The notes beneath the pieces were generated by a model, which did no database searches, had not been told where the DNA came from, and saw only the letters and a program-made list of their open reading frames with translations. Below are positions 32,602 to 53,445 of a DNA stretch of 64,000 bases, piece by piece (positions within the stretch are counted from its first letter, which is position 1; each line of letters starts with the position of its first letter). Source of the stretch: a virus. The stretch is taken from the IMG/VR virus record IMGVR_UViG_3300008954_000005, positions 32,001-96,000 of that record; one strand, written 5' to 3'. A program made the position numbers and the translations under genes.

Positions 32602-32602
32602 T

Positions 32603-33322
32603 TTAACCCCATGCCTGTTGCTGAAGAGCAGGCCTTGCTGATTGTTGTTGTTTTGGTGCCCACTCCCGCTGGAACTCTTCTGTGGGTCCTTTTGGACCCC
32701 TGGGTACAAAGCCGCTAGCTACGCTACCAGCAGTCTGTCGAGCTTCTGGCTTCAAGAGCATGTATGCAGCAAGTGCCGCAAGGCCCATTTTGCCTGGGTT
32801 TTTCATGCCCCAACCAACAACACCCTTCGGCCTAAACTTGGTTTTGTAGTAGACGGTTTTCCCGCCCACACTTCCTTTGGTTATTTGGCCCTTCGCTCTA
32901 CCAGACAAAATCTCGTCAGCGACCTCTTTGGATACAGGTGTAATATTGCCAGCCGCTATGTCTTTAGCCGCATTACCCGTTGCTAAAGAGTGGAGACGTT
33001 TACCTGCATGGACGCCTTCCGTGGAGCGCTTTCCTAAAAGGATCTCTTTGGCTTTATCGGCCCCTCTCCTAAAAGGAGTAGCAGCTAGCTCAGAGGGGCC
33101 TGACCACAGACCTTGGTTAACCCCTTGGGTGACCGACCGAAGAGAGTGTCCTCCGATACTCCTATCGAGGATGTTTCTATTAACCCACCCCCCAGCCTGT
33201 TCACCGGGGCCAGCAACCTTTCGAAGTTCCATAGCAAGCTTGTGCTTGTTTTGCTGCTTCTCATGGGGACGTACGTTAAGTGTCGAACGCTTTGCCACGG
33301 GTAGTGTGTGCACTAAACTCAT
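32603..33322 (-). CDS. basic virion-module protein with one TM-like segment
   Basis: KLAM and RKVAG motifs, GLAALAAYMLL. Confidence 0.7.
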   Translation of the reverse strand: MSLVHTLPVAKRSTLNVRPHEKQQNKHKLAMELRKVAGPGEQAGGWVNRNILDRSIGGHSLRSVTQGVNQGLWSGPSELAATPFRRGADKAKEILLGKRSTEGVHAGKRLHSLATGNAAKDIAAGNITPVSKEVADEILSGRAKGQITKGSVGGKTVYYKTKFRPKGVVGWGMKNPGKMGLAALAAYMLLKPEARQTAGSVASGFVPRGPKGPTEEFQREWAPKQQQSARPALQQQAWG

Positions 33323-35074: not shown

Positions 35075-36718
35075 CTAACCTCTATCATGCTTATCATCCC
35101 CTGACGGGCTAATAATATCAGGTCTTGGGTGTTCTATCATAGACGCCAGAAAACAGTAGGTAATTGCGTGCAAAGTATCATCTGTTGTACCCGGTGTCCT
35201 ATTAATAATAGTCGTTCTTCGCGCCTCGTTGTACTCTGTAAATACAGATAAGAGGTCGCTTCCAAAGGGTGTTTCAAAATCTTCCCATTTAGGGAAGGCT
35301 AATTCGTCCTCACGATTAATTGCGTTAATAACCGCCATCAACGCCTCCGTCCTATTAACCATAAACCTATGGAGGCTTTTGTCGAAGTAGATTCTCTTAG
35401 CATTTACGTACTGATACCTCGCAACACGGGCAATCCCAAACTGCCTTATCAGCCGGTCATTACGGTCAAATCCACCCCCGTAGTCAACCCCAGCTATGCG
35501 AACTTCGAATCTATCCATCAGCTTGGCAATGTCGTTCATAAGGTTTTCTGGACTGCCGTCTTCACCCTCATACCGTCTACAGTAGATGATAGTAAAGATG
35601 CGGCCGATATAACACCCAGCAACAAGTACGGAATAAGTATTCTCTCCTGTACCCCAATCAATCCCTAGATAGACTTTTCGATTACGGCCCTTAACGAATT
35701 TAGTCGCGAACTCCAGTGTGTTTGGTCGTTCTTGATTACAGCACTTTATCAGAGATTCCTTGTTGATAGGTTTCTCACCAGAATCGTAACCAACGCCCAA
35801 AACCTCATTAAAAAACTGAGCGCGACTGTACCGTTTCCTTTTATCGAGAATATCGTCCCAACGCACCCAAGGAGCAATTAACTGTGGGATTCTGTACCCC
35901 TCAAAAGGCGTCGTAACCGGTGGGTGCTTCAGCCATTGGGGTGACCGCATGGACGCCCATTGAGCCCTTGGATGATCCGCATGTATGGCCCTCCCGCATT
36001 TTTTACAGATCAACCCCTGGGCACCAATGTTGTCTTCTCCCAGAACATTCCAAGTGTTACAGCCCTCACATGGAACAACCCACTCATTTTGGGTGCTGAA
36101 TTGGTTCCAATAGTAGCTGATGGTGTTGTCCAAGCTCTTCGGCGTACCGGAGTAGCGAAGAATCTTGAACGGGGAGTGCGACAACGCCTCCTCAATAATT
36201 GGGATGATGTCTGTAAGGATGTCCTGAATCTCATCCAACAAAAGCATGTCAGCAGAGATACCGCGCACGCGATCTGCGTGTAAAAAGGCATACCGCATAG
36301 TGATGTCTGAGCCTGTCACATACTTCTTGTACAGAACGTTGTTCTTGGTATTCGCTCCCTCTGCAAAAGTTTGTAGTGTGGGGGAGAGTTCTATAGGTGT
36401 CTGTATCCTATCCCTTGAGAATGTTTCAGTCTGCTGCTGAGTGGGGCTTACGAACAGCGACCTAAAGTGCCTTCTCAAAGTCGAGTATGTTAGCGTAATA
36501 TTCCCTAGGGTTGTGCTCTTCTCTACCTGTCGGCCACACTGAAGAAGCAGTCTCTGGGAAGGTGTGTCATAGATAGGGATCAGGTAACGCCTGCCTTTAA
36601 ACGAAAAATGCTCCAACTCTCCCAAGCTGGGCATATTGAAGAAAGATGATACAAACTCGCTAGGAAAGAGATTATTATCCCTCTCAAAAGCTGCTGATTG
36701 TTCATCGAGTAAAGACAT
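35075..36718 (-). CDS. terL: terminase large subunit (lambda gpA-like, with Zn finger)
   Basis: GRQVEKST (Walker A), RVRGISAD.LLLDE (Walker B), SGTP, CEGC..CKKC, FFNEVLG, GIDWG, DDTLHA. Confidence 0.9.
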   Translation of the reverse strand: MSLLDEQSAAFERDNNLFPSEFVSSFFNMPSLGELEHFSFKGRRYLIPIYDTPSQRLLLQCGRQVEKSTTLGNITLTYSTLRRHFRSLFVSPTQQQTETFSRDRIQTPIELSPTLQTFAEGANTKNNVLYKKYVTGSDITMRYAFLHADRVRGISADMLLLDEIQDILTDIIPIIEEALSHSPFKILRYSGTPKSLDNTISYYWNQFSTQNEWVVPCEGCNTWNVLGEDNIGAQGLICKKCGRAIHADHPRAQWASMRSPQWLKHPPVTTPFEGYRIPQLIAPWVRWDDILDKRKRYSRAQFFNEVLGVGYDSGEKPINKESLIKCCNQERPNTLEFATKFVKGRNRKVYLGIDWGTGENTYSVLVAGCYIGRIFTIIYCRRYEGEDGSPENLMNDIAKLMDRFEVRIAGVDYGGGFDRNDRLIRQFGIARVARYQYVNAKRIYFDKSLHRFMVNRTEALMAVINAINREDELAFPKWEDFETPFGSDLLSVFTEYNEARRTTIINRTPGTTDDTLHAITYCFLASMIEHPRPDIISPSGDDKHDRG

Positions 36719-36950
36719 GATCAAAGATACCGTAACTAGTTTAGTGGGTTCCTTATCTAGGGCACTTGGAAACGACCTTGTTTCCTATAAAGAAGATGCC
36801 GAGAACACATACGTTCTTAAGCTGTGGCCCCCAATATCACAACATAATAAAAAGCTCTTAAAAGAGTTCATTGGTGAATACATACCGAGAGCCAGGGTCT
36901 CCATAAATACAAAAAGAGGGCTTGTGAAAATCACTCTGCGTCCTCGTTAA
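36717..36950 (+). CDS. small hypothetical protein, opposite strand to its neighbours
   Basis: 77 aa with protein-like alpha/beta pattern. Fills the gap between terL and the next - strand gene. Confidence 0.45.
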   Translation: MIKDTVTSLVGSLSRALGNDLVSYKEDAENTYVLKLWPPISQHNKKLLKEFIGEYIPRARVSINTKRGLVKITLRPR

Positions 36951-37152
36951 TATAGCTATCACACACAAAGTCTGCTCGCACGAACGTGCGGTACTCTGTA
37001 CACTCCCCATCCCCAGAATGGGCTCTGCCAGCCGAGTAGATGAACTGTTTACAGGTTACGCAGCGTTCATCAGCTTGCGCTAACCGCAGCCTGGGTGGCT
37101 GAGTGCTGGCTAGTTTGGCTTGGAGTTGGTCTAGAAGGCGATTTACCTCCAA
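36931..37152 (-). CDS. small 4-Cys protein (HiPIP-like spacing), start uncertain
   Basis: AKLAS...RCVTCKQF...GECTEY...V.ADFVCDSY. Overlaps the SNF2 tail. Confidence 0.55.
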   Translation of the reverse strand: MEVNRLLDQLQAKLASTQPPRLRLAQADERCVTCKQFIYSAGRAHSGDGECTEYRTFVRADFVCDSYINEDAE

Positions 37153-38857
37153 ATAATTTACTGAAGAACCCTTGTTTTGGGGCCTTTTGTTTCGGGTAAA
37201 CATAACGCATCTTCCCTGTTGTGTTGTCTCTATACTTATAGATAAATTTAGTAGGCTTTTTAAAGGCTGTGTAGAAGTCCTTCTGCTGCTTGAACTTTCG
37301 CCCAGCAACTCCGTACATCCATTCGTCTGTGGTTTGGGGGGTCTTCTTACCCATCGCTCGACCAATAAATCCTGGTCTAGCTGCCTTGGGCACAGTACTT
37401 CTGTACCGTCGAACATCTACCGCCCGGTTCTCAACGGCACGGTGTTGCTGCCCACCGAGTCTACGGGCACGGGCTTCCGCCTGAAGAATCCGTTGCGGGT
37501 TGAAGTGCCCGTCCAACGCGTAAAACGCAGTAGAGTTCTTCAGGTCGAGGCCTTCCGCACCAGCACCGCTTAGGATGATTACTTTCTTCTTGCCTGCTTG
37601 GTAGTCCTTCACTCCCTGTTGTCTTGTCAGGGCAGTGACCTTGTTCTCACCAACGGTTGTTCCTTTGCCAACAAACACGGCATGATCGATACCGCGAGCT
37701 TTTAGGCCAGCAGATAGGACGTCCACACCACCACGTACCAAGTTGCTGTACAGGACAACCTTGTTGTCGGGCTTCTCTGTGAGATGCTGCGCCGTGTCAT
37801 CCAGTACCTTTTTAGCCTTTGGTGTCTGCTGAGCGGATTGCGCTGCAGTCACGTCTGATCTTCCGGTGTGCACAGAGTTAGCAACCTGTCGAGCCGCCGC
37901 GATCTGGGCGAAGATGAACTTCGCATCCTTGACGGTGATGTTCTTGTCTCTACGCATAAGCATCTCTTTAATCGCTGGATGCTTATCCAGAGCTAGCTGG
38001 TATAGATCGTACTGTGCGGGGGACATCTCCACGTCCACATTCCGCACATCCTTCCGGGGCATCGTTTTGCCCTTAAGATCACCCGTCTCAATGTAGTCTA
38101 TTCTCGGTTGTGTCCGGGCCTTTAGCTCCTCAACCCGCTGGTAGCCGCGAATCTTCTTCTTCCCACCACCAAAACCCTTTGCTGTCCCAACAGTCTTGGT
38201 GAACCTTCGTCTGAATTGCTGGGGCGTCATCTCTCGGTTGTTCTCGGAGATGGTCATCAACGAGGCAATTTCAGAAGGGCGGTTGTTGATCAAAGAGGCT
38301 GTCAGCCCCATGAAGTTGACCGCGTACCTTCGAGCCTCTACTGCCGCTTTAAACGTTGATGCGGATTCATTTCTAGTCTTGTGGAACTCATCTAAAATCA
38401 GAGTGTCAGCCCCGGTTCGCTCCATGAACCCTTTTGGGTCCTTCCGAAACTGGGCGTAGCTTATGATTGTGTAATCAGCGTTGCCCTCGCTACCTGGGCG
38501 TACGTAGCCGTCCTTCTTCCGAACTTCAGCAGGCGAGCCAACAATCTGAACGCTGCTAGTGGTGAACTTTCGAACACCGCCATCCGCAAAGTTGGCCCGT
38601 AAGCCAGAGGGAACAACTACTAGCGCCTTCTTTGCTTTCCCATCGTGACGTAGCTTCTCAAATCCGTAAATGCTTGTAGCGGTTTTCCCCGTGCCCATCT
38701 CGTGGGCGAGAATCATTTTTCCCTTATTTGCGTACAGACGCTCTATCGCTTTTGCTTGGTGCTCATACGGTTTAAACCACTCTTTAAGCGCGGGAATACC
38801 CGTACCGTGTTGCACTTCCTGAGCGACCTCGGCGGCGCATTTAAGGAAAAACCTCAC
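37070..38857 (-). CDS. SNF2-family helicase/ATPase
   Basis: YEHQ, HEMGTGKT, VVVP, ILDEFH, LTAS..NN, K....VLYSN, AGAEGLDL, FNP....QAEARARRLG. Confidence 0.9.
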   Translation of the reverse strand: MRFFLKCAAEVAQEVQHGTGIPALKEWFKPYEHQAKAIERLYANKGKMILAHEMGTGKTATSIYGFEKLRHDGKAKKALVVVPSGLRANFADGGVRKFTTSSVQIVGSPAEVRKKDGYVRPGSEGNADYTIISYAQFRKDPKGFMERTGADTLILDEFHKTRNESASTFKAAVEARRYAVNFMGLTASLINNRPSEIASLMTISENNREMTPQQFRRRFTKTVGTAKGFGGGKKKIRGYQRVEELKARTQPRIDYIETGDLKGKTMPRKDVRNVDVEMSPAQYDLYQLALDKHPAIKEMLMRRDKNITVKDAKFIFAQIAAARQVANSVHTGRSDVTAAQSAQQTPKAKKVLDDTAQHLTEKPDNKVVLYSNLVRGGVDVLSAGLKARGIDHAVFVGKGTTVGENKVTALTRQQGVKDYQAGKKKVIILSGAGAEGLDLKNSTAFYALDGHFNPQRILQAEARARRLGGQQHRAVENRAVDVRRYRSTVPKAARPGFIGRAMGKKTPQTTDEWMYGVAGRKFKQQKDFYTAFKKPTKFIYKYRDNTTGKMRYVYPKQKAPKQGFFSKLFGGKSPSRPTPSQTSQHSATQAAVSAS

Positions 38858-43322: not shown

Positions 43323-44780
43323 TTACTTTTTAGCCTTTACTGTCTTAGACGCTACATCATCTTCAAACGTAACTGTCGCGCTAGGGAGGACGGGTCCGCT
43401 AGGACCAGCCGGGGTAGCGCATGAGAACTTGCTCTCTAGCCAAGTCTTTAAATCCTGCCAACGAACCACCCCTTGTAGTTCGTCACTGTTGGTTCCCAAC
43501 TGAATATTTGCCTCTCCCTGAATAAGGACATCGCCCTTAACCTGGAAATCCATCTCTTCCAGCACCTTGAATAATACTGATTTTACTTGAGCTTCAAACT
43601 CATTAGTGTCTAATAATTCAAGGATACTCTGCTTATTTTCCTTGGTATCTTCGCTCCCACCGTCACCACCGTAAACAACCTTGATACCTTTATTAACACG
43701 CGCATATAGTGTCTGGTCTATCTCAGCGTGTATATGCCCCTTTGTGAAAACAAGTGCATCCCCTTCTCGATTTAGTTGGAAGGCGTAGCAAACGGAATCC
43801 TTGGTCTCGGTGTTCGTATCCTTCTCGGGGTCATGGTTGTAGATGGTAAGGCTGAGGATGCCCTTGGACTCTTTTCTAATACCTTTAGCTTTGTGGCTAC
43901 CCGTTAACCGTACTGGCTGATCAACTCGATCCTTGGTGGCTTTGTGCCCCAAATAACCAAACTCATGTTCAGCATCCTCCTCGGTATCTAAGACCTCTGG
44001 AGTTAAACGACCAATACGAAGCTCTACAGTGTACTTGCCTTCCTTAACGTCCTCTTGGCACAAATCTTTTATGTTGTACCGAACCATCACCGGCGTCTCT
44101 GCTGCCGCGCTCAGAGCCTTGCTCTTATCGGCCTCCTCCAACAAATCAGAAGACAAGTAGCCTAGAACCTCTGTGGGCGTTTCGCCCTCAACTAGTTGTG
44201 CGTGGCCCCATTCAATCTCTCCAACGGGGCTGTAGGCTTGGTATCTCTGGAAGTAGTCGCGTACTAAATTCTCGATGGGCAGGTAGACGCGCTGCGCTAA
44301 CCCAGTAGCGCCGATTTGTACCATCCCACCACGCCGAACAATGACATGATTACCGTCAATAGCACCCATGTAAATGTCGCCGGGTTCTAGGTTCTCCCGC
44401 ATTGCCCGGAAGTTCGGCCCAGCATCAGCGGACTCTTCAATCAATTCTGCGCTTGGGCCGTCCAACTCAGCCATGTGCTCCGGGACAACGGCTGGCTGTG
44501 CGTTTATGATGAACGAGAGGATAAAGGACGTCCCATCGGCACACTCACACACATAACAGTGTGAGTTCACTTCCGGCATCCAGTACAACCCACCAACATG
44601 ATCTTGATGACAATACCCAGCAGCAAAAGGAACATCCACCAATGCCTTATGCGTGTAAATCGTCATCAAGTCACAAGTAAACTCTTGCACGTTCACACTC
44701 TGTACCAGAGCTAGGTGCACCTTCGCGGGCCTGTCAGCAAACCCAGGAGTTTGCCCCATACCATCTTGAAATTCAGACAT
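43323..44780 (-). CDS. baseplate spike (gpV/gp5-like OB fold)
   Basis: V.SVN...FTCD...GG...MPEV.S.C.V OB-fold pattern, LEPGD, beta-repeat C-terminus ending TPAGPSGP...SKTV. Confidence 0.7.
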   Translation of the reverse strand: MSEFQDGMGQTPGFADRPAKVHLALVQSVNVQEFTCDLMTIYTHKALVDVPFAAGYCHQDHVGGLYWMPEVNSHCYVCECADGTSFILSFIINAQPAVVPEHMAELDGPSAELIEESADAGPNFRAMRENLEPGDIYMGAIDGNHVIVRRGGMVQIGATGLAQRVYLPIENLVRDYFQRYQAYSPVGEIEWGHAQLVEGETPTEVLGYLSSDLLEEADKSKALSAAAETPVMVRYNIKDLCQEDVKEGKYTVELRIGRLTPEVLDTEEDAEHEFGYLGHKATKDRVDQPVRLTGSHKAKGIRKESKGILSLTIYNHDPEKDTNTETKDSVCYAFQLNREGDALVFTKGHIHAEIDQTLYARVNKGIKVVYGGDGGSEDTKENKQSILELLDTNEFEAQVKSVLFKVLEEMDFQVKGDVLIQGEANIQLGTNSDELQGVVRWQDLKTWLESKFSCATPAGPSGPVLPSATVTFEDDVASKTVKAKK

Positions 44781-47700
44781 TAATAAGGGCCTCCGCTATC
44801 TTTAGGCTTACCGAATTCAGCGGAATAAGCGATGCCTGGGGCGGGGTGTGTTCCGTGAAGATCAGACTCCCATCCCTCATTCGCAGCCCTAATAAAGGTT
44901 TCTTTAAGTTTTCGGTACTGAAGCCTAGCGATCCAGTCTGTACTCTGATCCAGAGGAAGTGTCTCGATACCACGGAGCATCGGCTGCACTCTGATCGGGG
45001 CTTTCATTTTGCCAGAACGATTGAGGGCAGCAGCGTGTGATAAAGAGATGTAGTCATTCTTGATAAACGAGGAGTCTCCAGGGTCAGTGACCCGCCCGAG
45101 GTTGGTTACCGCCTTGGTGACCACCTCAATGTTCCTTCGTTTAATCCCTTCGCTCTTATACACCTTGTTGATCTCGTCAGCGATGTACGCCTGGACTGTG
45201 TCTACGTTGGTCTTTGCCAATAGGTCTCGGGGCTCAATTACACCACTTGAAATCTGCTGGCCCTTCCTAACCTTGTCCCCAACACCGATACTGATCGTTC
45301 GCCCAGCCGGAACATAGATGTCCTCGTTACCAATAGAGATATCAAAACCACCGACAGGGCTCTTAGTCACCTTGCTTACCTCAGCGGTAGCTGGAGAAAG
45401 TACTGCTGCGTTAGGTAGCGTTGCGGGCATCTTCAGAAGTTGGCTAATCCGGTCAATGCCACCAACGACACCCGCAGAAGACCCGGCCACACCGCCCGTA
45501 TGGAATGTCTTCATAGACAACTGTGTGCCGCGTTCCCCCAATGCGGTTCCGGCAATAAGCCCGATATTGGTCCCCACCTCAACAGGCCTTCCACCATCCA
45601 TGAGCCCATAGCAGTGAGAACACAGCCCCTTCTTGGACTCACATTTCATAGGCGATCTAGCCACAACTTTAGAGACCTTTGAGGCCTTTAGCTTAGAAAG
45701 CAGCGCAGGGGTTATGGCCGTACCTGCGGGGACCGTGGATCCCCCAGCCTTAAAGGCTTTAGCAGTAAACCGATCAACTAAATCTGAGTCGCCAATATCT
45801 AGGGCAATCCCCCGCTTCGTACCACAATTATTCTGTGTAACTACGTAGCTAATAGCCGTGTTGGCTATTTGTTTATTCAGTGCCCCCGGAACAGATACAG
45901 ACTGTACCTTCTCAATGAGGCCCTTACGCGCACCAGATGAAGCGACCCAGTAATCAGAAGAACGCAGACCTTCGGAATATGACCTGTCTACAGGCACAGG
46001 AATAACCCGACCGCTCGCATTCTCTAGAAGCATGGGTCCGATAAGCATCTGCTGTAGCTGCGACCAAGCGGGTTTGACTCCTGCGTTGTTCATAGCTCTG
46101 AGTTTGTTTCCATCTTTGTCTAGAATCTTCTTAGCTTCTGACGACAGGTCTTCTGTCACCTTGGTATACAGGTCGATAATTTGAGCTTCGGCGGCGCTAG
46201 GAGAGATGAGCTTCATCTTCTCCTTTTTCCTGATGGCTGTTTCCTTAGCCCGCGCAACTTTCATCCTGCTATTGCGAAGCTCTGTGAGAGTGTTGAAGTC
46301 ATCCAAATCAAACGAGAACCCGGTGTCGTACGCATGACCAAAGCCAAGATTCTTTATCTTGTCTGCTGTGGCTTGGAACTCTGCGGGGCTTTTCACAGCT
46401 ACTTGGCGCAAGATGTTTTGGAGGACACCCTTCCCCATAATCAGCTTAGGGTCTGTGAGGATTTCTTCAGATTGAACCTTTTTCGGCAAGGCATTATTGA
46501 ATAATATTCTTCCCGCCGTTGTTCGTAATCCCCCAACAGACACAACATCAGTAGCTAGAATATCTCCAGCCTCTGCGGCGGCTAATGCTTCTTTAGCATC
46601 GGCAAACTTAGTTCTCGTCTTCTTCCCCATTTGGGTAAGCAGGTAGAGCCCTAACTGGCCCTCTAGGCTCGGCTGGTACATCACCCTCCCAGTAGCAGGG
46701 TTGAACAGGTTCTTTGAGGGCAGCATTTTATGCGCCTCATCGACGGCCTCTTGGGATACGGGCACAAAGATGGCCATTGTGTCCCCGTCAAAGTCAGCAT
46801 TGAACCCACCGGTCACCAGAGGGTGGATGTGGATGGACTTCTCATCGTGAAGTTTTGGCTTAAAGGCCATGATCCCAAACTTATGTAGAACTGGGTCACG
46901 CTTAAAAAGTACCGGGCGCTTGTTAACAGCAACCTCAAGGGCTCTATTCGCCAAAGAACTATTCTTCTCGATTTCTTCCCTAGCCTTGAGGGGCGTATAC
47001 CCCATGTTTACAAGCTCCTTCACCACAAAGGGCCTGTAGATCTTCATAGCCCCCTTCCTCGGAAGACCTAACTCGTCGAGGTGCAGATCCATATCGGGAA
47101 CAATGACCGACCGCATGGAGATGTCCTGCTTACGATCCAGAATTCGTTTGTGGAAAAAGCTCTGCTTTGGCGATTGACGGCCAGAGAGAATGGTGAGTAT
47201 TCCGGGGGGTCTTGCTTGACCATCCATAGTCATGGCCCCCTCTGTAGGGGTAGACACGCCCATCAAAGCATCCACAGCATTGTATAGGTCGCCCCGGAGC
47301 TTCGCGGTTGCGGACTCGGGCAAAACCCCATCGGCCTCCTTTAGCTTTTGGTTGAGCATGGCGATATCGCGGTACAACATGTTTGTACCATCGATGTTTA
47401 GATCCCCGCCCTCCATAGCGGTAATGGGCCTAAAGATAGGGGGCAGGACTGGCACATTGCTTATTCCGTACGCCTTGTCAGCGGAAAGGCCCTCCTTCTT
47501 GAGCATCAGCAGGTACTTAATCTTCTTGTTCAGCTTATCTAGCTCACCCCGTCTAGCGGTCTTTATCTGTTCCTTAGCCGAGGCAAGCTCTTCATCCACA
47601 TTTAGTGCAGCTAGGGCAGCAATGATTCCTTGAGGACCGACTATGTCTTTATGCGTTCCCGCAATAGCACTGTCGTACTCTTTCCCAGTCAGTCCCAGCA

Positions 47701-50700
47701 AAGACCGAACACCCTTTTCAAACATGGGGTTCGGCATAGAGGTTCCAAGAGCGATGTGCCCCCAATGATTACCGCCTGGGCCACCGGTCACGTCCTCATC
47801 AAATAGACCGCCCTTTTCTGGCTTTAGATCCTTGCCGCGAATTACGCGACTACCATCGGTAATCTCACCGTTAGAGGTCTCAAGAATTTGTTTATCCGTG
47901 AGAGGTGAGACAACAAGACCATTCCCCTCCTTCTCCACGTTAAGACCAAGAGCCCCCATGTACGCCAAGAATTTTTCATATGCGAACGATGGTTTTGGGT
48001 TGGGGAGGATCTGGCCTGTTTGGACTGCTGTCCAAATCTCATCCTGTTGCTTATCGCTTTTGTAGGTCAGTGCGTCCCGAATATTGGCTGTAGCTCCGTG
48101 GGCAAGCATGGCGTAAAGACCTAGTTCGCCAAACCGCTGTGCGCCTCCGGTTTCCCCACCGCCCTTGGGAACCAAGTTTGCGTCGTAGTCGTGTCCGTAA
48201 CCATGTGCCCTAGCACGGAGCTTCTTATCAATCTGATGTAGCAGCTTAAGCGTGTACTGCTTACCTACCAGTACTTGCCCCAGACTCTTCCCTGTGACCG
48301 GATCGAACAACTCCGTGGTTTCAGAGACGCCCTCTGCGGCAAGAACCTTCTTTACCTGCTCTTGGTAGCCGACTTCACGGTCGTGGGCCTTAATCGTTAT
48401 TTGCTTAGGGCCTTCTTTTGTCTGGATAGTGCGGGTGTGCTCCTTAACCCGGACAATCTTTTTCCCTCCGCTAGCCTGAAAGTTATCGACTGCGTAAGGC
48501 TCGCCCCGCTTGTCAGCAACCTTAGCCAAACTGGTCTCTAGGACCTGCCCTAGATTGATTCGGCCCGGAACACCAGAAGGATTCAGAATCAACTGGAGTG
48601 GGTTCCCTTCCGCATCTCTGGGCATCTCCTCATCAGGTATTACGGCAGTAATAACACCTTTATTGCCATGCCTACCTGTGAGTTTATCTCCTACGTCTGC
48701 GGGTTCTTCGGTCTTTACGTAGACCATTATCTCTCGACCATTACGAACAACATCCGTAACGACTCCGGCGTAAGGCTTCTCCCAGGTGACAGAGCGGTCC
48801 TTGAAGGGGCGTACCAGGGATTTATGGATTCCCTTCAACATCGCCTGCTCTTTTGAGGGCTCTGTCTTTTGGAGAACCGTCATCAAAGTGTCGCCTGGGT
48901 CAACCCGCTGGCCCTTCTTAATGACACCATCCTCATCCAGCTTGGCAGCGTTATCGTCCGTTACTGAGCCTGGGAAATTTGCCCGGAACTTGCGTAGCCC
49001 AACCTGCATATTTTTTTCAACGTACGCCCTATTTTTGTGCAGATGCTCGCTAGTCAGCTTCTTTGACGCCGTTTCAGAGATGACGATGCCGTCCTCAAAC
49101 ACCAAACCTTTGTAGGGGATGTAGCCAACCCTAAGGTTCGTGCCCATCGACAGCGTCCCGTCTTTTGTGAAGTTGGTGTCCGCGAGTGTCTGGCCAGCTT
49201 TGACGGTGTCCCCCTTCTTAACCAAGGGGGTGCTGCTGACAAAGGCCTTCTTGTCGTTCAGGGGAAAGTTGTCGTAGAGGGGCATCTCTACCTTGCTACC
49301 GTCCTTCGCCTGTAGAACGATTTTGGTGGCCCCAACAGACAGAACAGTCCCAGAGATTGGGCTGTTGTGACTAGTGAAGGAACCTACAATGTTTTCCCAC
49401 GTTTTAAACCGTTTGCTCGGGTTGCCGGAGACTACCTGCACAAGTGGTTGTTCTCGATCTTTTAGGGCTACCGCTTGTTCCATGTGGCGGGTAGCCATTC
49501 CAGCGCGATTAGCCTGATCCGTAGGGAGGAACGGGATCAGATTTGCTGTGATGGAGAACATGCCTTTGGGGGACCGAAGGATGTAATCGACCTCATTAGG
49601 CGCAACCTTCTCTGGATCCCCACCGTCTTTTCGGACAACCGTTACTAAGCTGTCAACGGCCTTAGGCTTCTTTCCAGAAAAGTCGTACTGGTCCGGGAAA
49701 GCGATGGCGGCATTAGCTAGGTCTGCTGGGCTTTTATCCACGTACGCCCCAGACTTGGTGTCGTACACAGTGATTAACGGCGTCGTCCCATCCTTCTTAA
49801 CACCCAAAGCAAGATGCCCGCTGATACCAGAACGCTTGCCCTCTGGTGTGTGCACCGGATCGATAAACCCTAGGAAGCTAGAGTCAATAAGCTTTGCATC
49901 ATCTGAAACAGCCTGCTCATTAGAAATACCACCCTGCCCCATAATGGTCGTTCGTAGGAACCCACCAATCATATCTACCGGGTTAACTTGGCTTGTTTGC
50001 TGGGACAGCGACGTTGACGTAAAGAAGGTTTTGATAGGGATGTTGAAGACATCCGGTGTAACGATGGCGCGAACGCTATCCTTCCTATCGATATTGTTCC
50101 CTAGCTTATACTGGATTCTTCTAGCTGAATTACCAATCCGCTCGGGAATGTGGTTGTCAATGGACCAAAGCTCCTTAAACCGAAGGGAGTCCCGATTATC
50201 AACCTCAGCCTCCCCCCTATTAATGGCTAATAACTTTCTAGAAGAGGCTAGCAGCGCACCACCGGAGACTTTATCGAAGCCTTCACCCAGGGTAATCGCT
50301 GTTGTATCTTTGAGTAACGCTGTTTTGTCGTACGCTTCTTTGACGATTGCCGCAGCCTCAGTATCGTTTGCTGGGGCGGCACCGCGTACAAGAGCCTTGG
50401 CGAGCTTAACGACCTCCCCCCGCTTTTTATCAGAGACGCTCCGTGCGTATAGCTCAGCCCCCCAAGCAGCACGGATGTCCTCATCCGGAATTCCCAAAGC
50501 TTGTAGAACGGGCAGTAGTTGAACGTTTGACGTTCCATACCCCATTAAGAATCTTCGTCTTGCGGGGTCGAATCCCAAACGGAAACCCCGCCCAGCCGCT
50601 AGGTTGAACTGGCTCTCAAGCTCTCCGTTGGCTTTACGTCTGGCGTACACCCCGGATTTTAGCCGCCACTGGTTGTCTACCTGATACTCCGTACCATCGA

Positions 50701-51013
50701 CAATGTAGCTATATCTTCTTGTGATTTTCGGGACAGCGGCAACTTTAACCTTAGCCACCTTATCTATGACTTTGCCGGTCTCGTTATCGACTAACTCAAA
50801 GTCACCATAGACTCCCTGAGCCCATGTTCGTCCACGTAATCTAGCTTTTTTCTGCGAAGGAATATCATCTAAATCAGTATCGCCCGTGGTGTAGATATTA
50901 CGAGCTACTAATGTTTGCTTCTTGCCTACTAGTGGAAAAAAACTATTTATTTTTTCTACGGTCCCGTCTTCGAGAGCTTTCATAACTCTCTGGGGATCTA
51001 GAACGTTTGCCAT
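44780..51013 (-). CDS. rpoBC: DNA-directed RNA polymerase, beta and beta' fused in one 2077 aa chain
   Basis: beta motifs: DPVHTPEG, LIPFL..DQANRA, FEDGIVIS, GDKLTGRHGNKG, LNPSGVPGRINLGQ, GAQRFGE, LTYKSD. beta' motifs: PVLPP.FRP, RSVIV, RDPVLH, NADFDGD, GARKGL, RSPMKC..CSHCYG, GERGTQLSMKTFHTGG. Confidence 0.95.
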   Translation of the reverse strand: MANVLDPQRVMKALEDGTVEKINSFFPLVGKKQTLVARNIYTTGDTDLDDIPSQKKARLRGRTWAQGVYGDFELVDNETGKVIDKVAKVKVAAVPKITRRYSYIVDGTEYQVDNQWRLKSGVYARRKANGELESQFNLAAGRGFRLGFDPARRRFLMGYGTSNVQLLPVLQALGIPDEDIRAAWGAELYARSVSDKKRGEVVKLAKALVRGAAPANDTEAAAIVKEAYDKTALLKDTTAITLGEGFDKVSGGALLASSRKLLAINRGEAEVDNRDSLRFKELWSIDNHIPERIGNSARRIQYKLGNNIDRKDSVRAIVTPDVFNIPIKTFFTSTSLSQQTSQVNPVDMIGGFLRTTIMGQGGISNEQAVSDDAKLIDSSFLGFIDPVHTPEGKRSGISGHLALGVKKDGTTPLITVYDTKSGAYVDKSPADLANAAIAFPDQYDFSGKKPKAVDSLVTVVRKDGGDPEKVAPNEVDYILRSPKGMFSITANLIPFLPTDQANRAGMATRHMEQAVALKDREQPLVQVVSGNPSKRFKTWENIVGSFTSHNSPISGTVLSVGATKIVLQAKDGSKVEMPLYDNFPLNDKKAFVSSTPLVKKGDTVKAGQTLADTNFTKDGTLSMGTNLRVGYIPYKGLVFEDGIVISETASKKLTSEHLHKNRAYVEKNMQVGLRKFRANFPGSVTDDNAAKLDEDGVIKKGQRVDPGDTLMTVLQKTEPSKEQAMLKGIHKSLVRPFKDRSVTWEKPYAGVVTDVVRNGREIMVYVKTEEPADVGDKLTGRHGNKGVITAVIPDEEMPRDAEGNPLQLILNPSGVPGRINLGQVLETSLAKVADKRGEPYAVDNFQASGGKKIVRVKEHTRTIQTKEGPKQITIKAHDREVGYQEQVKKVLAAEGVSETTELFDPVTGKSLGQVLVGKQYTLKLLHQIDKKLRARAHGYGHDYDANLVPKGGGETGGAQRFGELGLYAMLAHGATANIRDALTYKSDKQQDEIWTAVQTGQILPNPKPSFAYEKFLAYMGALGLNVEKEGNGLVVSPLTDKQILETSNGEITDGSRVIRGKDLKPEKGGLFDEDVTGGPGGNHWGHIALGTSMPNPMFEKGVRSLLGLTGKEYDSAIAGTHKDIVGPQGIIAALAALNVDEELASAKEQIKTARRGELDKLNKKIKYLLMLKKEGLSADKAYGISNVPVLPPIFRPITAMEGGDLNIDGTNMLYRDIAMLNQKLKEADGVLPESATAKLRGDLYNAVDALMGVSTPTEGAMTMDGQARPPGILTILSGRQSPKQSFFHKRILDRKQDISMRSVIVPDMDLHLDELGLPRKGAMKIYRPFVVKELVNMGYTPLKAREEIEKNSSLANRALEVAVNKRPVLFKRDPVLHKFGIMAFKPKLHDEKSIHIHPLVTGGFNADFDGDTMAIFVPVSQEAVDEAHKMLPSKNLFNPATGRVMYQPSLEGQLGLYLLTQMGKKTRTKFADAKEALAAAEAGDILATDVVSVGGLRTTAGRILFNNALPKKVQSEEILTDPKLIMGKGVLQNILRQVAVKSPAEFQATADKIKNLGFGHAYDTGFSFDLDDFNTLTELRNSRMKVARAKETAIRKKEKMKLISPSAAEAQIIDLYTKVTEDLSSEAKKILDKDGNKLRAMNNAGVKPAWSQLQQMLIGPMLLENASGRVIPVPVDRSYSEGLRSSDYWVASSGARKGLIEKVQSVSVPGALNKQIANTAISYVVTQNNCGTKRGIALDIGDSDLVDRFTAKAFKAGGSTVPAGTAITPALLSKLKASKVSKVVARSPMKCESKKGLCSHCYGLMDGGRPVEVGTNIGLIAGTALGERGTQLSMKTFHTGGVAGSSAGVVGGIDRISQLLKMPATLPNAAVLSPATAEVSKVTKSPVGGFDISIGNEDIYVPAGRTISIGVGDKVRKGQQISSGVIEPRDLLAKTNVDTVQAYIADEINKVYKSEGIKRRNIEVVTKAVTNLGRVTDPGDSSFIKNDYISLSHAAALNRSGKMKAPIRVQPMLRGIETLPLDQSTDWIARLQYRKLKETFIRAANEGWESDLHGTHPAPGIAYSAEFGKPKDSGGPY

Positions 51014-51047
51014 TGGGTGCCTCCGCGCTAACTACGCTCCCGTTTTA

Positions 51048-51055
51048 GGTATAAG
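51048..51055 (+). promoter_or_regulatory. GGTATAAG promoter-like motif
   Basis: Intergenic, upstream of the + strand Cys-rich gene. Confidence 0.55.
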
Positions 51056-51166
51056 AACTATGGAGCAATGTAGCTCCCAACCAAATAAGAGGAGTATACC
51101 AGCGTGTATCTTTCTAACAATCATGGAACAATAGTCAAAGAGGTGCTTTATGTGGTGTCTTAACAC

Positions 51167-51445
51167 ATGCGAACTATTCGCGTCAGCCGTAGAATCATCG
51201 CTGATGATCGTCGGATAGCGATGTCTACTCGCGCCCCCAAACCTATTGCTTGTGACGTTGCCGGAATCTGGTGCTACGAACCCAAGAATTGCGGGGCGTG
51301 TGCTCATTTCATTGAGAACACTGGTTGCGTTAGATGGGTTTGCTCTGCATGTGTCGTTAAAGCTGATAAGGCCTCCCCGTACTATCAACGGGGCGTTTGC
51401 GACAGATGCGATAACCCCTCGGCAATACTAATTCTTGTCCATTAA
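51167..51445 (+). CDS. small Cys-rich Zn-binding protein
   Basis: CGAC, CSAC and CDRC plus further Cys. Fills the RNAP-portal gap and has an upstream promoter motif. Confidence 0.65.
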   Translation: MRTIRVSRRIIADDRRIAMSTRAPKPIACDVAGIWCYEPKNCGACAHFIENTGCVRWVCSACVVKADKASPYYQRGVCDRCDNPSAILILVH

Positions 51446-53445
51446 ACCTGCGCTCTATCTGGGTCTGCGCGTGAAGGTAGTTTCTCCGGTAGGGGATTCA
51501 TGGACTTCACGCCAGCCCCAGATAGGGCATTATTCACCAACATGTAGAGATCAGGGTTGCTTGCACGGATTTGGGACATGGCCCGATACCTGTCCACCTC
51601 ATTCATCTTTTTTAGCTCTGAGGTGAGTTGCTTGGCCTGTGCAAACATATCTACCATGCCGCCGTTTTGTTGAGCCTGAACCGGACTCTGCTCCACCCCT
51701 TGGACAGGCCCGCCTTCTTGTTGCGGCGGCTGTTGTTGCTGTTGCTCCATTCCGGGAGGCGGTGCCCCCTGTTGTTGAGCGGCGGCTGGATCACCGCCGC
51801 CTTGCTGTGGCGGAGCGCCTCCTTGTTGCGGAGCACCACCGCCCTGTTGAGCGGCTGCTTGTTGCTGGGCCATTTCCGGGAATGCCTGTTGCAACTCCTG
51901 CTGAGACTCTGCCTGTAGGAATTGAGCCTGTCCCTGATACCGAGTATTGATGAGCATTGCTTCGCCCTGAGCGCTCGCCTGTGCGATCATTTGCTCACGC
52001 TGCTGCTTATTCATCTTCGTCAGTTCAGTGCTGATAAGTTCCTGCTCGCTCTCAAAGTTAAAGTCTCGGGACTCCAAGAAGGTTCTGCGACTAATCATGT
52101 TTGAGCCAGCAAGCTGCATATCAAACTGTGCTCGCTGGATGTCGTCAGCCATCTTGAATGGCTTGAACTTCAGTTTGATTTTAGGAAGATCCAAGAAAGC
52201 GCACACACGATCACGGATAAACTCAACGAGACGAAGCATATCCTGCCGATTTCCCAAAAACTCATTCTCTAGCGCCCTAAGATTCACTGAGGCCCCTGAG
52301 TACTGCTGCTCTCCGTAAAAGAACCCAGTGGGAACACCCATTCCAGCGATTATTTGATCATTATAAATTCGGAGTTCTTGGTGGAGGAGTAGTGACCGCC
52401 CTTGCCCGCCAATCATCTGGTAGCCAACGGGGACAGGCATCACCGGGATATGGTTGTTGTCCTGCCGCCACTTCTTAATCTGACTAGAGACCTCTTCCTG
52501 CCAATCCTGAAGATTGATGTGTGCGTAAGGGTTGTTCCCGTCTGTAGTTACCTGTGGAAACATGACCCGCATGGGGACGATGTGCTCCATGGCGACAGCT
52601 TCCTGAGCTTTCCTCAAGACCTGTAGAAAGAAAATATCCTTAAGCACTGGGAGGATGAGTGGAGCACCCCAGCCACTATCGGAGGGGGCTCTTGAGATTG
52701 ATGCACGTTTCGCGTGAAACAGTTTAGAGCTTTCGAGAAGGATGCTCTTCTTCTTCCGCATTGCCTCGATAAAAGCCTGCGGCACCGTTTCGATGATTGA
52801 GGGTTTACCGAGGGTGATATCGTTTTTGATATAGCGAGGAACCTCGTAGTAATACTCGCTTTTCCCGGTAATTTCGTTGTAGTTGATTTTGATGTTCTTC
52901 GGATTCCAACGAATAAGCCGAATCTGTAGGCCAGCCTTTACTGGCTCATCCTTTACACCAGCAATCCCTTCGTGCCCGCACGAGTCGCAAGTGATGTGGA
53001 ATTGATAGCTCTTCCACTTGTACTTGATCTTCCTTGCCTCGTAGTCTGCCTTGCACTCCTTACAAGTAAGAACCTTTGTAAAGGGGAAGGATACGGAGAC
53101 AAAAGCATTGCCGTACGTGTACCTATCTAGATTCGTTTCTACGAGGAACTGCCGCAGCAAAAACTGCTTTTCGAAGATCTCTTTGTATCGCTCTGTGACG
53201 CCTTCGTTATCGTCCTCATAGATAAGGTCGGTAATGGCGTAAGTTGCGAGCTTCTGCGTAATGCTGCTGACCAGGGGATTAGTAAGCTGGTAGTACAAGC
53301 ACCAGTCAAAAGTATCTTTGATCGTTTTGGGTAGATAGTTTTGTGCAACGTCAAAAAAGGGACTCGGGTAGAACTTTTCTGGTCTGCCCACCGTGGATGC
53401 GCGGGCTCTACCGCCTGAAACGTAACGACCAATATTACTAGACAT
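51442..53445 (-). CDS. portal protein with Zn-ribbon insertion and Gln/Pro-rich tail
   Basis: YTYGNAFVS, IRWNP..I, GWGAPLI, IIAGMGVP..F..G...YSG..V.LR.LEN. CKEC..CDSC insertion. Confidence 0.85.
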   Translation of the reverse strand: MSSNIGRYVSGGRARASTVGRPEKFYPSPFFDVAQNYLPKTIKDTFDWCLYYQLTNPLVSSITQKLATYAITDLIYEDDNEGVTERYKEIFEKQFLLRQFLVETNLDRYTYGNAFVSVSFPFTKVLTCKECKADYEARKIKYKWKSYQFHITCDSCGHEGIAGVKDEPVKAGLQIRLIRWNPKNIKINYNEITGKSEYYYEVPRYIKNDITLGKPSIIETVPQAFIEAMRKKKSILLESSKLFHAKRASISRAPSDSGWGAPLILPVLKDIFFLQVLRKAQEAVAMEHIVPMRVMFPQVTTDGNNPYAHINLQDWQEEVSSQIKKWRQDNNHIPVMPVPVGYQMIGGQGRSLLLHQELRIYNDQIIAGMGVPTGFFYGEQQYSGASVNLRALENEFLGNRQDMLRLVEFIRDRVCAFLDLPKIKLKFKPFKMADDIQRAQFDMQLAGSNMISRRTFLESRDFNFESEQELISTELTKMNKQQREQMIAQASAQGEAMLINTRYQGQAQFLQAESQQELQQAFPEMAQQQAAAQQGGGAPQQGGAPPQQGGGDPAAAQQQGAPPPGMEQQQQQPPQQEGGPVQGVEQSPVQAQQNGGMVDMFAQAKQLTSELKKMNEVDRYRAMSQIRASNPDLYMLVNNALSGAGVKSMNPLPEKLPSRADPDRAQV

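What the first reader, a model, noticed from the sequence alone, without database searches (positions are those of the whole stretch)
44780..51013. Compact single-chain beta-beta' RNA polymerase in the structural operon
Seen: all core beta motifs followed by all core beta' motifs in one uninterrupted 2077 aa ORF, several hundred residues shorter than bacterial beta plus beta'. Catalytic NADFDGD, bridge helix and trigger loop are intact. No alpha, omega or sigma gene is recognisable in the window. Its stop overlaps the spike start. Established: phiKZ-like phages split these subunits, crAss-like phages use very divergent single chains, and uncultured phages with cellular-like multi-subunit RNAP genes have been reported from metagenomes but remain poorly characterised. 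Inference: a late-expressed, virion-packaged enzyme for host-independent early transcription, possibly needing neither alpha nor sigma.
Basis: partly seen in the sequence, partly recalled or inferred. Interest (0 to 1): 0.85.

Follow-up and report, generated by a model that had tools for sequence, protein, structure and literature searches.

The report
Single-chain phage RNA polymerase with sigma
An uncultured ~180-kb marine phage encodes the two large catalytic subunits of a bacterial-type RNA polymerase as one compact 2,077-residue protein, between its portal and tail-spike genes. It belongs to a large, barely studied phage family that also carries its own sigma factor, so it may be a natural minimal transcription machine.

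Summary
Window 44780-51013 (minus strand) is one 2077-aa ORF with beta domains followed by beta' domains and no linker. NADFDGD, the bridge helix, the trigger loop (no SI3) and the second Zn site are intact. The beta' N-terminal Zn-binding domain is deleted.

It is not a recent bacterial capture. Every bacterial match is 26-31% identical, and 27 bacteria from at least 12 phyla form one side of a tree branch.

At least 70 IMG/VR contigs and 120 protein clusters carry the same fused gene in the order portal, RNAP, spike, terminase. The nearest cultured relatives are Salmonella phage Arash and Vibrio phages D69, D148 and D181 (about 31% identity). In these, beta is fused to the N-terminal part of beta' and the rest of beta' is a separate gene.

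- Published Arash virion proteomics found the RNAP pieces and a sigma factor in particles.
- No alpha or omega gene was found in the window's genome, and no alpha gene in four complete relatives or in Arash.
- "No sigma needed" is not supported. The genome encodes one sigma70-family factor 57 kb beyond the window. It is homologous to the Arash virion sigma, conserved across the clade, and predicted to dock on the retained clamp helices.

The scan has met this family in about 10 genomes. One earlier follow-up reached the same reading.

The parts
44780..51013 (-). Fused beta-beta' RNA polymerase gene, 2077 aa (P0001)
   Evidence: ORF list and translation. Pfam Rpb2 then Rpb1 domains. 26-31% identity to bacterial rpoB-rpoC.
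47921..51013 (-). Beta module, residues 1-1031. Includes the fork and Rif-pocket region, the GDK...GRHGNKG beta barrel and the flap with its tip helix (about residues 720-735).
   Evidence: BLASTP: residues 247-1029 align to RpoB 412-1340, without the 940-1050 insert. Motif alignment. Invariant columns.
49901..50041 (-). Rifampicin-pocket cluster I equivalent (residues 325-371). E. coli positions D516, H526 and S531 read S, G and T.
   Evidence: Alignment with Salmonella RpoB and family members. V146 reads D and I572 reads S in the same alignment.
47915..47926 (-). Beta/beta' junction. The beta C-terminus (...NVEKEGN) runs straight into beta' (GLVVSPLTDKQ...) with no linker, and the first ~30 beta' residues are trimmed.
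   Evidence: Alignment to the Salmonella RpoB C-terminus and RpoC N-terminus.
44783..47920 (-). Beta' module, residues 1032-2077
   Evidence: BLASTP: residues 1110-1841 align to RpoC 173-939 and residues 1843-2054 to RpoC 1128-1346, so SI3 is absent. PDB beta' chains match at E 2e-116.
47768..47776 (-). Site of the deleted beta' Zn-binding domain (RpoC 68-99). It is replaced by GGPGG after residue ~1081.
   Evidence: This is the only deletion of 12 or more columns shared by the whole clade against at least 70% of bacteria. It is also absent in Arash and D69.
47276..47380 (-). Beta' clamp helices (residues 1212-1246), the predicted sigma region 2 docking site
   Evidence: They align to RpoC 255-320. 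These residues form the interface in the complex prediction.
46781..46801 (-). Catalytic NADFDGD (residues 1405-1411)
   Evidence: Invariant in 10 diverse family members.
45836..45973 (-). Bridge helix region (residues 1681-1726)
   Evidence: Alignment to RpoC 765-810.
45419..45565 (-). Trigger loop without an SI3 insert (residues ~1817-1865)
43323..44780 (-). Downstream gene (485 aa), gp5/VgrG-like central spike or baseplate hub family. Its start overlaps the RNAP stop (TAATG).
   Evidence: Overlap seen. Homologues found in 59 of 70 related loci directly after the RNAP. Family members hit Gp5_C 5e-6, Gp5_trimer_C 2e-5, phrog_430 1e-7, and phrog_9992 in 6 of 11. The window's own copy gave no direct hit.
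51442..53445 (-). Portal protein gene (667 aa), upstream of the RNAP
   Evidence: 34% identity, E 2e-83, to the annotated portal Gp204 of phage Arash. Conserved in 61 of 70 loci.
51221..51445 (+). Conserved small gene on the opposite strand (74 aa, eight invariant Cys) between portal and RNAP. The minus-strand 118-aa ORF at 51032-51388 is probably spurious.
   Evidence: Homologues at 33-73% identity in 11 related loci. Cys at positions 11, 18, 24, 27, 41, 44, 60 and 63 are invariant.
51048..51055 (+). GGTATAAG motif, an extended -10-like T-G-G-TATAAG. It points away from the RNAP gene towards the small Cys-rich gene.
   Evidence: Five copies in the window against 1.4 expected. Ten in the genome with shared flanks. 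The block is invariant in 10 loci.
37070..38857 (-). SNF2-family helicase in the same gene block
   Evidence: Pfam SNF2-rel_dom 5e-17. Homologous to Arash Gp217, which directly follows the beta' C-terminal gene there.
35075..36724 (-). Terminase large subunit, at the end of the conserved block
   Evidence: Pfam GpA_ATPase 3e-12. Conserved in 50 of 70 loci.

Best explanation
The ORF encodes the complete catalytic core of a multisubunit-type (two double-psi-barrel) DNA-dependent RNA polymerase as a single chain.

Shown:
- All catalytic elements are intact.
- The gene is fused throughout a large clade of ~170-195-kb phages.
- It branches outside all sampled bacteria.
- Each complete genome has only one such enzyme.
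- No alpha gene was found in this genome or in four complete relatives, and no omega gene was found in this genome.
- The genome encodes one sigma70-family factor that is conserved with the enzyme.

Inferred mechanism:
- The single chain folds without an alpha-dimer scaffold, as the alpha-less phiKZ and AR9 enzymes do.
- It binds the phage sigma through the retained clamp helices and flap tip.
- The resulting two-polypeptide holoenzyme starts transcription at phage promoters. The extended -10-like T-G-G-TATAAG motif is a candidate.
- Because the gene lies between portal and spike, the enzyme and its sigma are made with the virion proteins and packaged. They are then delivered with the DNA, so the first phage genes are transcribed independently of host RNAP. 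The homologous proteins were found in Arash virions.
- Substitutions at five classical rifampicin-resistance positions suggest the enzyme is not inhibited by rifampicin.
For: Catalytic core:
- Domain order and motifs.
- Invariant NADFDGD, GRHGNKG and four Zn-site cysteines across members at 41-67% identity.
- PDB beta' chains match at 2e-116.

Clade and position:
- 120 listed protein clusters at 42-85% identity, all with Rpb2 plus Rpb1 domains.
- 70 IMG/VR loci, each with one ORF where the contig allows.
- Synteny portal, RNAP, spike, terminase.

Not bacterial:
- The best 80 bacterial loci are all 26-31% identical.
- Bacteria form one side of a branch, SH-aLRT 100 and 99.

Subunit content:
- One RNAP locus per complete genome.
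- No alpha and no omega.

Sigma:
- Sigma70_r3 27.2 bits, above its cut-off.
- RpoS structures 4e-5.
- TIGR02937 3e-6 over regions 2-4.
- Homologue of Arash Gp10, E 1.5e-21.
- Present in 4 of 5 distant clade genomes.
- Single copy in this genome.

Docking:
- Clamp helices and flap-tip helix are retained.
- Complex prediction: ipSAE 0.74, best of 3 controls 0.00. That mark was reached by 58 of 80 solved complexes and 2 of 110 mismatched pairs.
- The runs share at least 45% of their contacts, and the partner's pLDDT is at least 71.
- The interface is beta' 1212-1246 against sigma 87-129 and 160-164.
- This is a textbook pair, so the pass may only reflect likeness to solved holoenzymes.

Packaging:
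- In the Arash virion MS, Gp206 had the most spectra (3516), Gp216 had 1210, and sigma Gp10 had 100% coverage (PMC10585845).

Rifampicin pocket.
Against: - There are no direct data for this phage. Packaging rests on a relative at 31% identity.
- That relative's 'virion' proteome lists 116 of 272 proteins, including ribonucleotide reductase and kinases. Its authors themselves allow for carry-over.
- Alpha-independence is inferred only from the absence of a gene. Host alpha and omega could be recruited.
- The promoter of the RNAP gene was not found. The one sigma70-like site upstream is not conserved, and such sites are no more frequent than chance.
- An opposite-strand gene separates the portal from the RNAP, so co-expression with the portal is not established.
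- The GGTATAAG motif could equally be read by the host sigma70 holoenzyme.
Confidence: 0.6

Rival explanations
1. The enzyme is a non-virion polymerase. It is made during infection and, with the phage sigma, transcribes middle or late genes. It is not packaged, and host RNAP transcribes the early genes.
For: The Arash 'virion' proteome holds 116 of 272 gene products, including metabolic enzymes, so abundant intracellular proteins may be carry-over. There is only one RNAP per genome, whereas phiKZ and AR9 keep separate virion and non-virion sets. The extended -10-like GGTATAAG promoters would suit host sigma70.
Against: The gene position between portal and spike, with its stop overlapping the spike start, is conserved down to 37% identity. 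In Arash the RNAP piece gave more spectra than the major capsid protein. The sigma gene lies among virion-protein genes in Arash.
Confidence: 0.3
2. The single chain is a hybrid-enzyme core. It still needs host alpha2, and perhaps omega, for assembly or activator contacts. It would then be host-dependent even if it carries its own sigma.
For: The enzyme is much closer to cellular beta/beta' than the phiKZ or crAss enzymes are. A fusion alone does not remove the alpha requirement in E. coli (from memory: Severinov et al. 1997, not checked here). No phage-encoded replacement scaffold was identified.
Against: Alpha-less phage multisubunit RNAPs exist (phiKZ and AR9; review PMC7598289 appears, and PMC7824862 was read). 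The alpha-contact surfaces were not examined here, so this rival is largely untested.
Confidence: 0.3
3. The gene is a recent capture of bacterial rpoB-rpoC that fused in the phage.
For: Its overall architecture and motifs are of bacterial type. Fused rpoBC also occurs in bacteria, for example a 2284-aa ORF in a Paceibacterota MAG.
Against: Identity to every bacterial phylum sampled is a uniform 26-31%. All 27 bacteria form one side of a branch of length greater than 2 substitutions per site. The Zn-binding-domain deletion is shared by the whole phage clade.
Confidence: 0.02

Closest known systems
RNAP of Salmonella phage Arash (Gp206 + Gp216, with sigma Gp10) and of Vibrio phages D69, D148 and D181
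   Same: They are sister group to the fused clade in the tree (100). Beta is fused to the N-terminal part of beta'. The gene lies just after the portal gene. The Zn-binding domain is absent. They have homologous sigma, portal and SNF2 helicase genes. Arash virion MS detected all three transcription proteins.
   Different: Identity is only about 31%. Beta' is split near residues 1467-1499 of the window protein, with homing-endonuclease or other genes in the gap. The C-terminal piece is a separate gene. The papers and records annotate the pieces simply as 'beta' and 'beta'' and do not note the fusion.
mReC, the multisubunit-RNAP-encoding Caudovirales (Weinheimer & Aylward 2020, PMC7481178)
   Same: These are tailed phages from metagenomes, including IMG/VR, with cellular-like beta and beta' that branch outside cellular lineages.
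   Different: All contigs listed in the part of their table that I read have separate beta (1000-1487 aa) and beta' (887-1391 aa) genes. The text mentions fusion only for crAssphage. Whether the fused clade falls inside mReC was not tested.
phiKZ / AR9 virion and non-virion RNAPs
   Same: These are phage multisubunit RNAPs that lack alpha and omega. One set is packaged and injected for early transcription (PMC7824862).
   Different: Their beta and beta' are split into four or five polypeptides. There are two paralogous sets per genome. They have no sigma70-family factor, and they are far more divergent. Here there is one chain, one set and a sigma70-type factor.
crAss-like phage single-chain RNAP (phi14:2 gp66)
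   Same: One polypeptide carries both barrels. From memory, it is virion-packaged.
   Different: It has no sequence similarity to cellular beta/beta' that COG models can detect. The present protein hits seven Pfam RNAP domains.
Cobetia phage Carin-5 sigma-beta-beta' cluster
   Same: A cultured marine phage (155 kb) with compact beta (1083 aa), compact beta' (927 aa) and an adjacent sigma gene.
   Different: The genes are separate and lie among replication genes, not virion genes. Identity is 26%, and it sits on a very long separate branch.
Cellular fused rpoBC (a Paceibacterota MAG here; Helicobacter and Wolbachia from memory)
   Same: A natural in-frame beta-beta' fusion.
   Different: These are ordinary bacterial enzymes that branch with their phylum, and they are larger (2284 aa or more).

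Membership tests
Multisubunit (two double-psi beta-barrel) DNA-dependent RNAP, beta/beta' type | Beta barrel with conserved lysines (GDK...GRHGNKG) and Rpb2 domains 3, 6 and 7 | tested here: met
   Pfam Rpb2_6 1e-55, Rpb2_3 and Rpb2_7. Invariant G775-D776-K777 and G780...G786.
Multisubunit (two double-psi beta-barrel) DNA-dependent RNAP, beta/beta' type | Beta' barrel with the Mg-binding NADFDGD, a bridge helix and a trigger loop | tested here: met
   These are invariant across the family.
Bacterial core enzyme alpha2-beta-beta'-omega | Alpha subunit (N-terminal dimerisation domain) encoded or required | tested here: not met
   PF01000 and PF01193 gave no match in this genome, in four complete clade genomes or in Arash, while all 14 controls were positive. 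Use of host alpha is not testable here.
Bacterial core enzyme alpha2-beta-beta'-omega | Beta' N-terminal Zn-binding domain (four Cys, RpoC 70-88) | tested here: not met
   It is deleted in every clade member and in Arash and D69.
Bacterial core enzyme alpha2-beta-beta'-omega | Branches within Bacteria | tested here: not met
   27 bacteria form one side of a branch, SH-aLRT 100 and 99.
Sigma70-dependent holoenzyme | A sigma70-family factor with regions 2-4 is available | tested here: met
   A 299-aa ORF at contig positions 153079-153978. Sigma70_r3 scored above its cut-off. RpoS chains matched at 4e-5. TIGR02937 matched over residues 125-298.
Sigma70-dependent holoenzyme | Core docking sites for sigma: beta' clamp helices and beta flap-tip helix | tested here: met
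   Both align with the Salmonella elements. The predicted interface uses beta' residues 1212-1246.
Sigma70-dependent holoenzyme | Physical binding and sigma-dependent promoter initiation | not testable with these tools
   There is only a model: ipSAE 0.74 against 0.00 in controls. The pair resembles solved complexes.
Virion-packaged phage RNAP | Protein present in purified particles | not testable with these tools
   Homologues were detected in Arash virion MS. No particles of this uncultured phage exist.
Virion-packaged phage RNAP | Gene embedded in and co-oriented with virion morphogenesis genes | tested here: met
   The order portal, RNAP, spike ... terminase is conserved in most of the 70 loci.
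mReC clade (PMC7481178) | RNAP falls in the monophyletic phage clade defined there | not tested
   No mReC sequences were at hand. Their listed contigs carry separate genes.

The most novel reading that the evidence does not exclude
The fused chain plus the phage sigma is a complete, self-assembling two-polypeptide holoenzyme. It would need no alpha, no omega and no beta' zinc finger. It would be packaged in the virion and would be the phage's only polymerase. That would make it the smallest natural sigma70-dependent multisubunit-type transcription machine, in a phage lineage that separated from bacterial RNAP very early.
Probability: 0.35. Interest if true: 0.75.

Novelty: new variant of a known kind. 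Interest (0 to 1): 0.6.

Why it matters
Bacterial RNAP assembly is taught as alpha2, then alpha2-beta, then alpha2-beta-beta'. The known alpha-less phage enzymes (phiKZ, AR9, crAss) are so divergent that they say little about the cellular enzyme.

This enzyme still aligns residue by residue with bacterial beta and beta'. It keeps both sigma docking sites and comes with a sigma70-type factor. Yet it lacks alpha, omega, the beta' zinc finger and all lineage-specific inserts, and it is a single chain.

If it works alone, it gives a tractable minimal system: one ORF of about 6.2 kb and one of about 0.9 kb. Such a system could be used to:
- study sigma-dependent initiation and alpha-independent folding;
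- build orthogonal, probably rifampicin-insensitive expression systems.

It would also mark a widespread group of marine and sewage phages that may start infection independently of host RNAP.

Cultured cousins exist (Arash and the Vibrio phages D69, D148 and D181), so all of this is directly testable.

Tried and rejected
- Fold of the downstream 'spike' protein from an 11-row alignment: mean pLDDT 38, unusable, so no fold search was run.
- Fold of the 74-aa Cys-rich protein: mean pLDDT 52, unusable.
- The window's own spike copy, the 118-aa ORF, the 656-aa, 270-aa and 166-aa neighbours, and the two ORFs upstream of the portal gave no Pfam, PHROG or NCBIfam hits.
- The minus-strand 118-aa ORF between portal and RNAP was considered as a small RNAP subunit. 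It was rejected because it is poorly conserved (6 loci, 45-56 aa), while the opposite-strand ORF is well conserved.
- A sigma70-like promoter just upstream of the RNAP (TTGTTA, 16 nt, TATACT with TG) is not conserved in relatives, and such sites are no more frequent than in shuffles.
- The Sigma70_r2 model found nothing in the genome. The sigma was recognised only through region 3 and whole-protein models.
- The T7-type RNAP model search was uninformative because its controls were also empty.
- MT836236, 'Acinetobacter phage MD-2021a' and several 'phage' records that matched at 27-32% are bacterial rpoBC contamination, so they were left out of the comparison.
- A second, profile-based scan for sigma relatives in IMG/VR returned the same five loci.
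- Sequencing runs: no RNA holder was listed, so no reads were laid.
- Literature searches for a prior description of the fused form found none, but the library is limited.
- Two tool calls failed on term syntax and one on a length limit.
Full report
**Observation**

The window holds a single minus-strand ORF at 44780..51013 of 2077 aa. It has an ATG start preceded by GGAGG.

Pfam finds Rpb2 domains 3, 6 and 7 at residues 340-996, followed by Rpb1 domains 1, 2, 3 and 5 at residues 1141-1863. PHROGs gives two strong 'unknown function' families that are beta and beta' of other phages, plus the annotated phage RNAP families. PDB beta' chains match at 2e-116.

The window is positions 32001-96000 of a 155,722-bp IMG/VR phage contig estimated 87% complete. 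The identical protein also occurs on a 184,334-bp contig.

**Anatomy**

Against Salmonella RpoB and RpoC, which share E. coli numbering:

| Window protein | Bacterial counterpart | Note |
|---|---|---|
| 247-761 | RpoB 412-940 | |
| 762-1029 | RpoB 1050-1340 | the 940-1050 insert is missing |
| 1110-1841 | RpoC 173-939 | |
| 1843-2054 | RpoC 1128-1346 | SI3 is missing |

- tblastn matches to actinobacterial and CPR genes extend to residues 14-53, so the N-terminal lobes are homologous too.
- The beta C-terminus runs directly into beta' at residues 1031/1032 with no linker.
- Only one deletion of 12 or more columns is shared by the whole clade against at least 70% of bacteria. It is RpoC 68-99, the N-terminal Zn-binding domain, and it is also absent in Arash and D69.
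- The second Zn site is kept. Its four cysteines are invariant.
- NADFDGD, the bridge helix, the trigger loop, the clamp helices and the flap-tip helix are all retained.
- At classical rifampicin-resistance positions the protein reads V146D, D516S, H526G, S531T and I572S. Rifampicin insensitivity is therefore an inference, not a result.
- The chain is 672 aa shorter than the Salmonella pair, and about 200 aa shorter than the smallest bacterial pairs sampled.
- Most of the saving comes from missing lineage-specific inserts and trimmed loops.

**Distribution**

- A protein search lists 120 clusters at 42-85% identity. All carry both Rpb2 and Rpb1 domains. Most are 2030-2120 aa and sit on contigs of up to 199 kb, many from marine surveys. 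The longer ones carry intein or homing-endonuclease domains.
- IMG/VR holds 70 related loci. Each has a single ORF of 2054-2217 aa, or 2515-3008 aa in the longest, presumably intein-bearing, forms. The exceptions are cut by contig ends.
- The gene order is conserved down to 37% RNAP identity:
  - two upstream genes, then the portal and a variable stretch;
  - the RNAP, then the 485-aa gene, whose start often overlaps the RNAP stop;
  - the 656-aa gene and further genes, ending with the terminase.
- Shorter hits are mostly fragments or intein-split pieces.

**Neighbours**

- The upstream 667-aa gene is the portal. It is 34% identical (E 2e-83) to the annotated Arash portal.
- The downstream 485-aa gene shares one base with the RNAP stop, TAATG.
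- That copy has no direct family hit. Its syntenic homologues match Gp5_C, Gp5_trimer_C, a baseplate-hub PHROG and a baseplate-assembly PHROG.
- A fold of the 485-aa protein failed.
- An SNF2 helicase lies further down the block. It is homologous to the helicase that directly follows the beta' C-terminal gene in Arash.

**Origin**

- A scan of one genome per species for 185,579 species returned 600 or more bacterial rpoBC loci. The best 80, from many phyla, were all 26-31% identical.
- In a tree of 44 rows by 1990 columns (LG+C20 PMSF, quick search), the groups were:
  - 27 bacteria from at least 12 phyla, one side of a branch (SH-aLRT 100);
  - the 15 fused sequences, one group (99);
  - Arash plus D69, another group (100).
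- With the very divergent Cobetia phage Carin-5 added, the fused clade plus Arash and D69 is one side of a starred branch (100).
- Long branches and uneven amino-acid composition were flagged. The tree is unrooted and has no archaeal outgroup. Even so, recent capture from bacteria is excluded.

**Partners**

- Alpha and omega models find nothing in this genome. Alpha models find nothing in four complete clade genomes, two of which have terminal repeats, or in Arash. All 14 control genomes were positive.
- Each complete genome has one RNAP locus only.
  - Sigma70_r3 scores above its cut-off.
  - RpoS structures match at 4e-5 over regions 2.2-3.0.
  - TIGR02937 matches over residues 125-298.
- It is the only such gene in the contig.
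- It is homologous to Arash Gp10, annotated as a sigma factor (E 1.5e-21), and to a D69 gene.
- It is present in 4 of 5 distant clade genomes.
- A complex prediction of sigma 60-299 with beta' 1032-1480 gave ipSAE 0.74 against 0.00 for the best of three controls.
  - That mark was reached by 58 of 80 solved complexes and 2 of 110 mismatched pairs.
  - The runs share at least 45% of their contacts, and the partner's pLDDT is at least 71.
  - The interface pairs the clamp helices (1212-1246) with sigma 87-129 and 160-164.
  - Sigma with clamp helices is a textbook interface, so this pass shows likeness and not proof of binding.

**Packaging**

The Arash paper (PMC10585845) reports a virion proteome:

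| Arash protein | Identity | Result |
|---|---|---|
| Gp206 | beta fused to the N-terminal part of beta' | 3516 spectra, the most of any protein |
| Gp216 | C-terminal part of beta' | 1210 spectra |
| Gp10 | sigma factor | 100% coverage, 467 spectra |

The authors note that abundant intracellular proteins might be carried over, and 116 proteins were called 'virion'. Packaging in the present phage is therefore an inference from homology and gene position.

**Transcription signals**

- GGTATAAG occurs five times in the window, all on the plus strand, against 1.4 expected.
- It occurs ten times in the contig, within a T-G-G-TATAAG extended -10-like context.
- The copy at 51048 points away from the RNAP gene. 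It is invariant in ten loci.
- That copy precedes a conserved 74-aa gene with eight invariant cysteines on the opposite strand.
- The block is therefore not one uninterrupted operon, and the RNAP gene's own promoter remains unidentified.

**Comparison with what is known**

- The mReC paper (PMC7481178) describes metagenomic tailed phages with deep-branching beta and beta'. It mentions fusion only for crAssphage. The part of its table that I read lists separate genes.
- The jumbo-phage overview (PMC7824862) states that phiKZ-like phages have split subunits, two RNAP sets and no sigma, and that the other jumbo groups lack RNAPs.
- I found no paper that describes the fused form.
- This scan has met the same family in about ten genomes. 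One earlier follow-up reached the same reading.

**Verdict**

This is a real and widespread, but uncharacterised, variant of phage multisubunit RNAP: a single chain of cellular type, with no alpha or omega gene found, without the beta' zinc finger, and paired with its own sigma. The packaging idea is plausible but indirect.

Noticed in passing
window 51221-51445 (+), with motif at 51048-51055 (+): A conserved 74-aa protein with eight invariant cysteines (probably two Zn sites) is encoded on the opposite strand between the portal and RNAP genes. It lies downstream of an invariant GGTATAAG block and a covarying hairpin. It sits next to a polymerase that has lost its own N-terminal zinc finger, so a role in transcription is worth testing. 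The fold attempt failed.
   Followed up: partly
contig positions 3306-87124 (window 1579, 5708, 7156, 51048, 55124): There are ten copies of GGTATAAG with shared flanks (T-rich upstream, T-G-G-TATAAG, then a/t-rich ending in TTTG). The pattern looks like an extended -10 promoter without a -35 element. No copy lies in the sense orientation within the part of the minus-strand virion gene block that holds the RNAP, window 14170-55105.
   Followed up: partly
window 37070-38857 (-); L003:19127-20455: An SNF2-family helicase is linked to the RNAP both here and in Arash, where its start overlaps the end of the beta' C-terminal gene. This recalls the RNAP-linked Swi2/Snf2 helicase noted for phiKZ-like phages in PMC7824862. 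It may be a RapA-like partner.
   Followed up: partly
window 31489-32709 (-): A 406-aa protein in the virion block carries a histone H1-like Hc1 domain (Pfam 3.8e-9, residues 109-160). It may be a DNA-condensing or packaged protein.
   Followed up: no
proteins P0029, P0040, P0053, P0063, P0066 and others; loci L043, L054, L059, L064, L078: Many family members carry one to three inteins or homing endonucleases (LAGLIDADG, Hom_end and Intein_splicing domains), reaching lengths of up to 3258 aa. In Vibrio phages D181 and D148 a homing endonuclease sits in the gap of the split beta'. Mobile elements may explain the Arash-type split.
   Followed up: no
L103:163-7014 (Candidatus Paceibacterota MAG): A CPR bacterium has rpoB and rpoC fused in one 2284-aa open frame. 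It branches with the other CPR bacteria, so this is an independent cellular fusion.
   Followed up: no
L081 (CAKLQH020000005.1), L175 (MT836236.1), hits H8-H18: Several records filed as phages are bacterial contigs carrying rplL-rpoB-rpoC. They include 'Acinetobacter phage MD-2021a', Staphylococcus, Listeria and Enterococcus 'phage' contigs, and an unverified faecal 'Bacteriophage sp.'. They can mislead searches for phage RNAPs.
   Followed up: partly
L004:13079-13978 (-) and alignment A4, columns 1-60: The sigma factor has an N-terminal extension of about 65 aa with a conserved D-P-x-x-D-F-L-K-F-A motif that the shorter Arash and D69 sigmas lack. Another reader suggested this is a capsid-targeting or protease signal. 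I did not test that.
   Followed up: no
L176:1520-8345 (Cobetia phage Carin-5): A cultured 155-kb marine phage carries a sigma, beta (1083 aa) and beta' (927 aa) cluster among replication genes. It is a second and very divergent type of compact phage RNAP with its own sigma.
   Followed up: partly
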